DNA of 24,583 nucleotides from Fibrobacterota bacterium (lineage in GTDB: Bacteria; Fibrobacterota; Fibrobacteria; UBA11236): contig JAYUVP010000323.1 of the NCBI GenBank assembly GCA_043753995.1, forward strand, positions 1-24,583. The letters are read 5' to 3'. Below are positions 9,001-12,000 of this stretch, piece by piece. The position numbers were made by a program. Numbering within the stretch: position 1 is the first letter of the stretch; the number at the start of each line of letters is the position of its first letter.

Positions 9001-12000
9001 ACATCCGTGGTTGATTATAACGAACAGCTTTACTTCCGCGACCTTTACCGGCACGAAGTCATTACGCCGGACGAGGAAAAAGAGCTGGTCTTGAAGGTCA
9101 AGGTGGGTGACAGCAAGTCACTCAATCGCCTCATTCTCGGCAATTTGCGCTTTGTGGTTTCCATTGCTCGCCGCTATCAGGGCAAGGGCCTCTCCCTGCT
9201 CGAACTCATCAATGAAGGCAATCTCGGACTTTACAAAGCCGCCAAGCGCTATGACCCCAGCCGCGAAGTGAAATTCATTTCTTATGCGGTGTGGTGGATT
9301 CGCCAAAGCATACAGAAGGCCTTATTCGAGCAAGTCGGCGCGGTGCGCGTGCCTCCCAATAAATTGGCGCTCGTCAATAAGTTCAAGAAAGCCTTGGTGC
9401 AAAACGGCGGTGATTACGAAAAGACCGTCAATCTCCCCGATTTCGTCGAGCATGAAAAAGAAATCGCCGAGGTCATGGAGAAAATCGCCGACGTATCGCT
9501 CAATGCCCCCATTGGCGCCGACAGTGATGCCCGCGATCCCGTCACCACCTTGCTTGACGTCCTTGGCAATGAGGGCAATCAAGAGCCCGACAGCGAAAAA
9601 GCCGAACTCGCCCGCGTCATCGATTCGGTGCTCGGCCAAATGAGCGAGCGCGAGGAAAAAGTCCTGCGCATGTATTACGGCATCAACTATTCCCGCGAAT
9701 TCACCCTCGACGAAATCGGCAAAGAGCTCAAGCTCACCCGTGAACGCGTTCGCCAAATCAAAAACAAGTCGTTACGGAAATTACTGCGCAGCAAGGACAG
9801 CAAGGATCGCTTGTTGCCTTTTGTGTCGGAACCGTAAAGGGAGAGGTTTCTCCCTCGGTCGAGCCTCCTCGGCTTTGTACGGGGTGGCTGATGTTCGGCC
9901 ATGAAAATTGGGCTCGCGGGTCCTCGGCCCAGGAGCGGCCCTGGAGTCAATGGCCTGCGGAGCGAGCCCGATTTTCAGGCGCTCACCGCCACCCCTCCGC
10001 AATCCCCAGGGGATTCGGCACGGGACCGGCCCCCCACTTTAAGCGGTTCTAGTGCCGGTAGTATTTCCCTGGAGCAAGCAATGCCTGCGGGGTCTCTCCC
10101 TGCCCTCTCAACGGGGGCCTGGCCCCCGTAACGCCCCTGTGACTCCCCCTGTTTGTTTATGCATTTCCCTGGGCGCGAAGGCGGTCGGCGCTTTGCGCCT
10201 TCCTGTTCGCGTGCTTCCGGGGTATTACCTATGGGCTTGCAGGGGATATCGGCGTGCGCCAAGGGCTGCGGTGGACGTCTCCGAAGAGGCTCGCTCCGCA
10301 GCGAGTGAAGCGAGTGAGGACCGCGAGCTTCTTCGGAGACGGAAACGTCTGCGGCCCGCCCCTTTTTGCGCGTTTCCCTGGGGGCTTGCGATTTCGGATA
10401 GGATTTGATTTACCTAGGTGACCTTGGTTCCAATTGCAAAGCATTTAGGTTGCGGCCCGAGACGGTCCATGGTTTGAGCCTAGCCGCCCTTCTATGGGTC
10501 CGGGAGGATTTGGATCCTTTGAGAAGAGGGCTGGGTACGGCGGTCTGTAAAAATTTCAGCAAGGTAGGCACGTGAATATGTCCATACCCCGAGGCTCCTG
10601 AATGGGGTGGCTCGACTTGGGCCGTATAAACCAACCGGTCTCCCATGTCGCTCACCTGGGGTATCGAATGCATATGGGCCAAGGGGCCACCTCGCAATAC
10701 GCCGAGAGAAACAATGCCTTGCGAGACGAGGCTGTCATACCTGAAGAGAAAAATTCCTGAAGAATTGGGTTTGGCCTGATTGGCGGGAGATTCGTCATGG
10801 GCAAGGGCCAAGGCCATCAGTGGTGTAGGATAGCGAATCGAGTCCTGGGGGAAAACAGTTAAGCCTAATGGCCTTTGGGTCACCGTGGACATCACGCGGG
10901 CTTCAGGCAAGATGCCATCGGGTCTTAGGGTTTGCACCCGAATTTCCACACGATAAGGCTGGCTCAAACAACAGGTTCCTGGATAGGCCTGGTTATCGCG
11001 ATAGGCCATCCATTCATGGTAATCGGGAATTTTATCGCCATCGATGTCGTCGAATTGAATTCCCATCCTCAAGCCATCCCGATGAGGCGTTGATTTGAGG
11101 ATGCGCGATTCGGGTGAGGAATCGCCGGTAAAATGACGAAAGCCTTCCACCAGCCATTCTTGCGAACCCTGGCTTATCCTTCGGGTAATGGCGAGCAAAT
11201 CGGGTAGGGAATCATATCTCCATAGTGAGTCCCGATAATTTCCGACGGCAAGAGTGCGTGTCAAACCCAAACGCGATGGCTCGGTAGAATCAGGTAGATC
11301 CATATCGCCACGGGCCGTCAATAATTTTTCGGTGAGATTCTTTAAACTCTCCGAGTGCACGAGTAGGACTTGTATGCGACCGGGATGTCCTGCCAGGCCC
11401 ACGGCGATATCCGGATAATCGTCCCTATCGAATTTGCCAATAGTTACAGAGGCGGGACTTCCCTTGAGCAAAACCGAAGTGTCGGGGCGCGCCTCCAAGC
11501 ATTGCTCCAAGGAACAACCAGGCTGGAGGGTTCTAAAATTGTAGAGGTCTAGGAAATAACTCGAATCAATTCTTCTCACCATGGCTATGCCTCGATAGAA
11601 CTTATCTGGAAACGCTTCCATGACAAGCATCACATCGGCATATTTTCCTGGAGGCAAGGATTTTTTTTCTAAAAGTCCAAAACCATGATACCCTCCCCTT
11701 GTGGCCCATAAACCAATGGAATCGCTCCAGCCATTATGGGAGGAGCCCTCAAGCACCAAATGGTCGTGAATCACGTCAGCGCCATTATGAAATAAACCCA
11801 AGGCTAGGGGCCGAAGTTGCATCTGGAATGCATTCGCACCCTCGGGCAATTGTCCCCCATCGGTCAGCCCACGGGAATCGTTAAAGACGCCCGTATCCCA
11901 CTTTAGCTCCGAATTCACCGGCTCGTTGGGGAACGAGAATAATCCACCGCCAAAATCACCTTGCAAGGCGAGGGGGAGGGTGGCGTGAAAATCGCGGAAG

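What a model noticed while it worked through the whole genome (the two positions that open the first line are those of the whole stretch)
9829..10152. Multi-copy 320-nt structured RNA-like element placed just after stop codons
About 30 intergenic places in this genome (18 full length) hold a GC-rich ~320-nt element that folds into one multi-helix structure kept by compensatory changes, and 15 of the 22 best copies begin within 16 nt of the stop codon of a gene, in that gene's direction. I read it as a new family of structured 3'-UTR RNA carried by a non-autonomous mobile element: a ~135-nt core shared with relatives of the order UBA11236 that in this genome gained a ~190-nt multi-helix inner domain. 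It has no Rfam family, so both the RNA class and its way of targeting gene ends would be new.
Evidence so far: blastn of intergenic DNA vs genome: repeats at C45,C245,C127,C117,C323,C32,C56,C224(x4),C38,C90,C229,C252,C274(x2),C327,C57,C213 and more. RNAalifold on 13 full copies: 61 pairs in 9 helices, long-range closing helix cols 40-56/292-309. Pair counts: 96.6% of 789 cells are standard pairs (44-56% when the 3' partners are slid by 1-3 columns); 14 pairs and 30 cells with changes on both sides against 5.6+-1.4 and 9.4+-2.4 in 500 shuffles (0 of 500 reach the observed). G.U cells 42 vs A.C cells 9, incl. two invariant G.U pairs, so the strand co-directional with the upstream gene is the folded one. 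cmscan vs 4227 Rfam families at E<=1 on 4 copies, both strands: no related family (one chance-level [...]
(Added by a program. Inside this text positions count along the whole contig: contig position 1 is position 1 of the stretch shown here. "Call 12" and the like, gene names such as g00115 and contig names such as C1 are that model's own, and its searches are not shown. The text may have been shortened before it was handed on; [...] marks where a part breaks off. The agent that wrote the report below was given it as the finding of a first reader that could run no searches.)

Follow-up and report, generated by a model that had tools for sequence, protein, structure and literature searches.

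The report
Mosaic single-strand DNA hairpin repeat
The folded 300-base repeat behind many genes is real, but its base-pair pattern points to the strand opposite the messenger RNA, and its outer frame also stands at the front of rolling-circle jumping genes and of plasmid early genes, so it looks like mobile DNA that folds when single-stranded, not a new messenger-RNA tail.

Summary
Observation confirmed: 24 copies with a 5' end (17 full), 15 of 24 within 16 nt of a co-directional stop versus 3.7% of random intergenic sites; no Rfam family. Read strand-neutrally, mismatches in the closing helix are pyrimidine pairs on the gene strand (27 of 32 here; 68 of 71 across other genomes), so G.A-type pairs on the antisense strand. 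The outer ~110-nt scaffold occurs in 78 of 141 genomes of the phylum, in alphaproteobacterial plasmids (8 of 14 annotated contexts upstream of ardC, DUF932, parB-type genes), and as the 5' end of ISCR-type rolling-circle transposons in this family. The ~190-nt inner domain was found in this genome only. Verdict: a BIME-like mosaic repeat on a widespread scaffold that probably folds as single-stranded DNA. Its mobilising enzyme and function are inferred, not shown. The scan had noted this repeat before on other contigs of this genome (e1-7894795).

The parts
9007..9837 (+). sigma-70 factor gene; its stop codon ends 1 nt before the element
9839..9854 (.). hairpin A, sharp left boundary of the scaffold in all families examined
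9857..9871 (.). 5' arm of the scaffold's closing helix
9881..9995 (.). inner core B, long imperfect hairpin; found in this genome only
9996..10084 (.). inner region C, variable hairpin
10085..10100 (.). 3' arm of the closing helix; pyrimidine mismatches on +, so purine-purine pairs on -
10111..10137 (.). hairpin D and conserved tail, right end of the scaffold
10161..10210 (.). module E, accessory hairpin shared with several copies
10256..10367 (-). module F, inverted second copy of the inner core
   Evidence: 84 bits
10407..10418 (+). possible worn oriIS-like end (12-mer match; under the 15-bit PWM cut-off); overlaps the stop codon of the convergent gene
10410..12119 (-). convergent ORF, no Pfam family
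4086..4446 (+). second, diverged copy in the window (scaffold, different inner part, module E), overlapping the stop of the ORF that ends at 4092

Best explanation
A dispersed, protein-less mosaic DNA repeat (REP/BIME/MITE-like). Its frame is a ~110-nt three-part scaffold (hairpin, closing helix with a variable insert, hairpin plus tail) that folds on the strand antisense to the upstream gene, most likely as single-stranded DNA. In this genome one lineage took up a ~190-nt insert and accessory modules, including an inverted copy of the insert's core, so both strands carry a folded unit as in BIMEs. Shown: copies, modules, covariation, which strand carries purine-purine pairs, wide distribution, and position at the 5' (terIS) side of ISCR-type elements. 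Inferred (about 0.4): the copies here were spread by an ISCR-type Y2 HUH transposase acting in trans on mini elements running from scaffold to oriIS, which later lost their oriIS ends. Inferred: copies just behind stop codons are the ones selection tolerates, with the gap trimmed by deletion; as for REPs, side effects on mRNA stability or translation are possible.
For: Strand: mirror fold gives G.U 48 / A.C 9 on the antisense strand versus 43 / 8, energy -74.6 versus -68.8. Closing helix read on the gene strand: 103 WC, 27 pyrimidine-pyrimidine, 2 GU, 3 AC, 0 purine-purine in 15 of 17 copies; 136/68/0/3/0 in 23 distinct helices from 34 of 51 loci; 97/38/4/3/2 in 16 helices from 28 loci. C-GNA-G triloops: 14 on the antisense versus 0 on the gene strand in 18 relatives' scaffolds (shuffle 2.9+-1.4), 7 versus 0 in F2b. 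ISCR link: scaffold directly 5' of an intact 522-aa Y2/Zn transposase in G226; 6 further relatives' copies run into transposase remnants and 3 into an oriIS-like end (L160, L174 by regex, L165 by eye). In this genome scaffold variants precede transposase remnants at C224, C355, C242, C94 and C149. An oriIS PWM trained on relatives finds same-strand downstream hits for 7 of 85 copies versus 0 on the opposite strand (0.4% expected per copy), including a full long copy at C337 (+327, 30.9 bits). An HMM from relatives alone hits 13 long-copy pieces among 19 hits versus 1 hit in the reversed control. IS91 moves as its bottom-strand single-stranded circle (passage in PMC13181058). Independent mobility: a bare scaffold lies in frame in a glycosyltransferase linker of G062 and is absent in 5 orthologues.
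Against: Only 1 of 24 long copies has a clear oriIS end. This genome holds only transposase remnants. The other near relatives' transposase 5' ends with enough flank (L103, L145, L143, L142, L140, L120) and the metagenome hits lack the scaffold. Family f5 has the scaffold in 48 of 53 genomes but Y2_Tnp in 0 of 66, so ISCR cannot be the general mover. No RAYT/Y1 gene here. For the long copies alone, triloops are not enriched (1 versus 2), per-copy single mismatches are G.T 8 versus A.C 2 positions on the gene strand, and RNA energies favour neither strand (8 of 17). Purine-purine pairs do not separate DNA from an antisense RNA. Kin copies are not independent. The tight stop-codon spacing is explained only by inference.
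Confidence: 0.6

Rival explanations
1. The scaffold is a working single-strand signal (primer-start ssi/sso or Frpo-like single-strand promoter) used by conjugative plasmids/ICEs and ISCR elements. The chromosomal copies are left by such elements and perhaps kept as priming sites. Compatible with the best explanation, but it adds a function.
For: 15 and 32 plasmid records match, nearly all alphaproteobacterial and mostly single copy. In 8 of 14 annotated contexts it lies upstream of, and in the sense of, ArdC, DUF932, ParB, toprim, LPD29/30 or DUF3768 genes, 5 of them 70-95 nt from the start. In AP027332 these genes point towards traD and a large adjacent ORF, so the folded strand would be the transferred one (inference from general knowledge of leading regions). 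The loop of module F resembles a motif upstream of ssb/DUF932 in NZ_CP046873 (seen by eye).
Against: 6 of 14 contexts are not of this kind. No sigma-70 boxes at 9700-10550, and known Frpo are defined by -35/-10 elements (passage in PMC11541004). The window element itself has no plasmid match. oriT was not located. Six viral-collection copies lie mostly beside capsid genes. No assay.
Confidence: 0.2
2. One reading: a structured 3'-UTR RNA on the gene strand, carried by a mobile element.
For: 15 of 24 copies lie tight behind stop codons; real covariation; one invariant T.G column on the gene strand; G.T 8 versus A.C 2 single mismatches in long copies; contigs of one RNA library cover 9775-9930 and core pieces.
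Against: The G.U excess is symmetric. Pyrimidine-rich mismatches and C>G, T>A composition on the gene strand in 15 and 17 of 17 copies. Inverted core in the same loci. Most scaffold relatives are not at gene ends. RNA contigs show presence only, not strand or level.
Confidence: 0.1
3. The antisense strand works as an RNA (a non-coding RNA transcribed towards the gene end, or divergent from the transposase or early genes).
For: Tandem G.A pairs are stable in RNA too (established knowledge); GNRA/UUCG loops 6 versus 3 on the antisense strand in relatives' scaffolds.
Against: No promoter-like or terminator-like site on the - strand; no Rfam family; contexts are enriched in elements with single-stranded DNA stages.
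Confidence: 0.1

Closest known systems
REP / BIME / REPIN repeats (PMC6006769 passages; PMC5082802 passages)
   Same: Multi-copy, intergenic, palindromic, mosaic with inverted units, often just behind stop codons, sometimes in frame in genes.
   Different: No GTAG/GTGG foot at the hairpin; about 110-580 nt; no RAYT (Y1) gene in this genome; linked instead to an ISCR-type Y2 transposase.
IS91/ISCR rolling-circle elements and their miniature forms (PMC13181058, PMC13393415, PMC3189936 passages)
   Same: Scaffold at the 5' (terIS) side of a Y2/Zn transposase 33% identical to ISCR1; oriIS-like 3' end; mini elements; shared left flanks as after one-ended transposition.
   Different: Described terIS has one short palindrome, not a multi-helix scaffold. 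Most copies lack oriIS. The transposase scores below both NCBIfam cut-offs. The scaffold occurs widely without Y2.
Frpo / ssi single-strand promoters and priming sites of plasmid leading regions (PMC11541004 passages)
   Same: Structured element upstream of ArdC/DUF932/ParB-type genes, folded strand opposite to the genes.
   Different: No -35/-10 boxes found; not compared with the five known sequences; also a chromosomal repeat.
Plasmid-associated motifs ARRPOF, GEBRO, PAGEV (PMC5737381 passages)
   Same: Covarying motifs of 223-349 nt whose authors note that they may act as ssDNA.
   Different: No Rfam match of any kind at E<=1 for six scaffold loci or the window.

Membership tests
REP/BIME (RAYT-mobilised) | multi-copy intergenic palindromes, mosaic with inverted units | tested here: met
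REP/BIME (RAYT-mobilised) | GT[AG]G tetranucleotide at the hairpin foot | tested here: not met
   5' flanks of 24 copies vary and show no such foot
REP/BIME (RAYT-mobilised) | cognate Y1 transposase (RAYT) flanked by the repeats | tested here: not met
   0 of 1 in own genome (97% complete); 2 of 5 repeat-rich relatives have a Y1 match, not examined for linkage
IS91/ISCR mini element | related autonomous element with HUH Y2 transposase | tested here: met
   L099 in G226: scaffold, leader, intact transposase, oriIS-like end
IS91/ISCR mini element | oriIS end downstream on the same strand | tested here: inconclusive
   1 of 24 long copies, 7 of 85 in all families; window match below cut-off
IS91/ISCR mini element | tetranucleotide target matching the terIS cleavage site, no duplication | tested here: inconclusive
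   no clear tetranucleotide after the oriIS-like ends; no close empty site
IS91/ISCR mini element | mobilisation in trans by the transposase | not testable with these tools
   needs a transposition assay
Frpo/ssi | on the transferred strand, upstream of leading-region genes | tested here: inconclusive
   8 of 14 annotated plasmid contexts; oriT not located
Frpo/ssi | -35/-10 elements in the stem | tested here: not met
   0 sites in window 9700-10550; plasmid copies not scanned
Frpo/ssi | priming or transcription from ssDNA | not testable with these tools
   needs an assay
structured 3'-UTR RNA | fold specific to the mRNA strand | tested here: not met
   partial counter-signal
structured 3'-UTR RNA | transcribed as a stable RNA | tested here: inconclusive
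   contigs of one RNA library only, no strand
classical MITE (DDE) | terminal inverted repeats and target duplication | tested here: inconclusive
   ends share only a G-run and a C-run; no duplication seen at the G062 insertion, orthologues diverged

The most novel reading that the evidence does not exclude
The scaffold is an undescribed cross-phylum single-stranded-DNA signal (priming, single-strand promoter or HUH termination site) shared by alphaproteobacterial conjugative elements, ISCR-type transposons and phage-like contigs. It has become a self-spreading chromosomal repeat across Fibrobacterota and would mark the long-undefined terIS side of one ISCR lineage.
Probability: 0.3. Interest if true: 0.75.

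Novelty: new variant of a known kind. Interest (0 to 1): 0.45.

Why it matters
As filed, it is a new repeat family of a known kind and removes a false RNA candidate. It also shows that G.U counts taken from a one-strand fold cannot tell the strand. The wider scaffold is the part worth following. One ~110-nt structure stands in front of plasmid establishment genes, at the terIS side of ISCR-type elements and in many copies across a phylum. If it proves to be a single-strand priming, promoter or termination signal, it gives a testable handle on early gene expression after transfer and on how ISCR elements end, and it links REP-like repeats to a mover other than RAYT.

Tried and rejected
Exact inner-core pattern: 0 of 250 other phylum genomes; 26 genome and 25 viral hits were chance, with no flanking hairpin. 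Whole-element blastn in 40 relatives: one 25-nt chance hit inside a coding region. Inner-core covariance model: 0 of 70 class genomes, stricter filters. RAYT: none here. No HUH or RAYT gene among 126 ORFs beside 44 scaffold loci; one integrase. Ribozyme, group II intron end, attC and SECIS readings were considered by eye from recalled motifs and dropped; Rfam gave nothing. A likeness of module F to the ColE1-type primosome site is recalled and was not tested; two plasmid searches with window DNA gave one chance hit each. A first gene model was misled by antisense ORFs and replaced. GC-skew orientation was uninformative (genes 155 of 311 co-oriented). RNA and DNA z-scores did not separate the strands (12 of 17 copies, 12 shuffles each). 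Sequencing runs: only contigs, small shares of words, no empty site and no circle junction. An alignment with one wrong interval was redone. Literature: searches showed no description of this scaffold; the library lacks most subscription papers, and no supplements were read, so the Frpo table of PMC11541004 and the motif tables of PMC5737381 could hold it.

Full report
OBSERVATION. The window is contig C323 of a 5.2-Mb, 356-contig genome. The element begins at 9839, 1 nt after the stop of a sigma-70 gene. blastn with 9701-10450 returned 56 pieces in 39 loci. A motif census gave 24 long copies with a 5' end, 17 of them with both inner core and 3' arm. With my own hexamer gene calls, 15 of 24 start between 7 nt before and 16 nt after a co-directional stop, against 185 of 5000 random intergenic positions. 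One copy was scored inside a gene, 3 lie further behind a stop and 5 on the start side. Rfam has no family for it.

ANATOMY. The unit is modular: hairpin A (9839-9854), a closing helix (9857-9871 with 10085-10100) around an inner domain (core B 9881-9995, region C), hairpin D with tail (10111-10137), and accessory modules E and F. F (10256-10367) is an inverted copy of core B. The genome also holds short relatives: F1-short, which is the scaffold without the inner domain, and the more distant F2a and F2b. These hug stop codons less: 3 of 14, 1 of 25 and 8 of 22. The inner core was not found in 70 other genomes of the class nor, as an exact pattern, in 250 of the phylum.

WHICH STRAND FOLDS. 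On my 12-copy alignment the gene strand gives 43 versus 8, but the reverse complement gives 48 versus 9 and a lower energy; two other alignments behave alike. The excess comes from the algorithm. In a fixed, strand-neutral register the closing helix of 15 of 17 long copies (2 not parsed) has 103 Watson-Crick, 27 pyrimidine-pyrimidine, 2 G.U, 3 A.C and 0 purine-purine cells on the gene strand. In 23 distinct helices from other genomes and viral contigs (34 of 51 loci parsed) the counts are 136, 68, 0, 3, 0, with four positions switching between a Watson-Crick pair and a pyrimidine mismatch. 16 helices from 28 further loci give 97, 38, 4, 3, 2. On the opposite strand these are G.A-type pairs, which stack stably (established knowledge). 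C-GNA-G triloops, known as very stable DNA loops (recalled), occur 14 times on the antisense and never on the gene strand in 18 relatives' scaffolds, and 7 versus 0 in F2b. Against this: the long copies show no triloop bias, their single mismatches are G.T 8 versus A.C 2 positions on the gene strand, and kin are not independent. The strand is fairly well supported; DNA versus RNA is an inference from context.

LINK TO ISCR-TYPE ELEMENTS. This genome has no Y1 transposase but has remnants of an IS91/ISCR-type one. A long copy at C224, an F1-short copy at C355 and F2a copies at C242, C94 and C149 stand directly 5' of such remnants. In relative G226 the scaffold precedes a leader and an intact 522-aa transposase (Pfam Y2_Tnp and Zn_Tnp_IS91 over cut-off; 33% to ISCR1; below the NCBIfam cut-offs) followed by an oriIS-like end. 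Among relatives' copies the left boundary is sharp at hairpin A; 6 more run into transposase remnants, 3 into an oriIS-like end, and three pairs share left flanks. An HMM from 18 relatives' scaffolds gave 19 hits here, 13 in listed long copies, against 1 in the reversed genome. An oriIS matrix trained on 11 relatives' sites hit downstream on the same strand for 1 of 24 long, 1 of 14 short, 5 of 25 F2a and 0 of 22 F2b copies, and 0 on the opposite strand; the long copy at C337 is a complete mini element. The window's own match at 10407 is weak. IS91 uses its bottom strand as the single-stranded intermediate and often misses terIS (passages of PMC13181058); that strand is the one that carries the purine pairs here. 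Limits: six other transposase 5' ends in near relatives and 13 metagenome loci lack the scaffold. The tallies include the unpublished genome G021; no claim here rests on it.

WIDER DISTRIBUTION. A covariance model of the scaffold matched 78 of 141 phylum genomes, often in many copies (rough E-values; inspected hits are clear homologues). That includes 48 of 53 genomes of a family with no Y2 transposase in 66 searched. So ISCR is not the general mover. A bare scaffold lies in frame in a glycosyltransferase linker of G062 and is absent in 5 orthologues. It also occurs in 6 viral-collection contigs and in plasmids: 15 and 32 records in two searches, nearly all Alphaproteobacteria. Of 15 plasmid contexts opened, 1 had no annotation; in 8 of the other 14 the scaffold lies upstream of ArdC, DUF932, ParB, toprim, LPD29/30 or DUF3768 genes in the same sense. 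Such genes are typical of leading regions (recalled; passages of PMC11541004 describe ssDNA promoters there). One case is the left end of a Tn4371-like gene set (name recalled).

HOW IT PROBABLY WORKS. The scaffold folds when its antisense strand is single-stranded, as in rolling-circle transposition or conjugative transfer, and is recognised there. In this family it forms the terIS side of ISCR-type elements, and mini elements were probably spread in trans and then eroded; the inner domain grew in one lineage. Whether it is a termination, priming or promoter signal, or only a target that ISCR elements insert beside, is open. Placement behind stop codons is best read as survival in the least harmful spot; REPs within 15 nt of a stop are reported to affect translation (passage in PMC5082802 citing Liang 2015, which I did not read), so side effects on the mRNA are possible. 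RNA evidence is limited to contigs of one library.

PAPERS SEEN. Passages only: PMC13181058, PMC13393415, PMC3189936, PMC5082802, PMC11541004, PMC5714925, PMC5737381, PMC6006769. No supplements were read. Earlier AI notes gave the leads on a dispersed mosaic repeat and on ISCR remnants; I tested them here.

VERDICT. New variant of a known kind, interest 0.45; the wider scaffold could deserve 0.75 if it proves to be a working single-strand signal (probability 0.3).

Noticed in passing
window 4086-4446: Second, diverged copy whose first bases overlap the stop of the ORF ending at 4092 (C-terminus looks like an Fe/Mn superoxide dismutase, recalled, not scanned).
   Followed up: partly
window 10407-10418: The oriIS-like motif overlaps the last codons and stop of the convergent 569-aa ORF, which has no Pfam family; the repeat may have supplied its end.
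   Followed up: no
L320, L367, L368, L369, L366, L322 (scaffold to start codon): A second conserved ~85-nt hairpin lies between the scaffold and the start of ardC/DUF932; a short stretch of it resembles the leader of the ISCR-type elements in G226 (by eye).
   Followed up: no
L252:936-2300: Scaffold plus heptamer repeats read in frame in a glycosyltransferase linker; two orthologues carry pieces of other repeats at the same place.
   Followed up: partly
L247, L253, L259, L266, L268, L305, L299, L282: Many low-copy scaffolds lie beside restriction-modification, Fic, KilA-N, ORF6N, RhuM, HipA or integrase genes, so in mobile islands.
   Followed up: no
L308, L309, L310, L312: Small viral-collection contigs with a capsid gene carry the scaffold; two have a DUF7222 gene downstream.
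   Followed up: partly
L217:460-734: A metagenomic ISCR-type element with a different left end also starts right after a co-directional stop codon.
   Followed up: no
L099:2754-2817: The oriIS-like end is tandemly duplicated (32 bp) behind the intact transposase, which lies about 470 nt downstream of a tRNA-like gene (seen by eye).
   Followed up: no
L264, L269: Some Fibrobacter-family scaffolds carry a different palindromic repeat as their insert.
   Followed up: no
L316:2500-2530, L317:3500-3530: A motif like the loop of module F lies upstream of ssb/DUF932 in a Pseudomonas plasmid and in a small Arsenophonus plasmid.
   Followed up: partly
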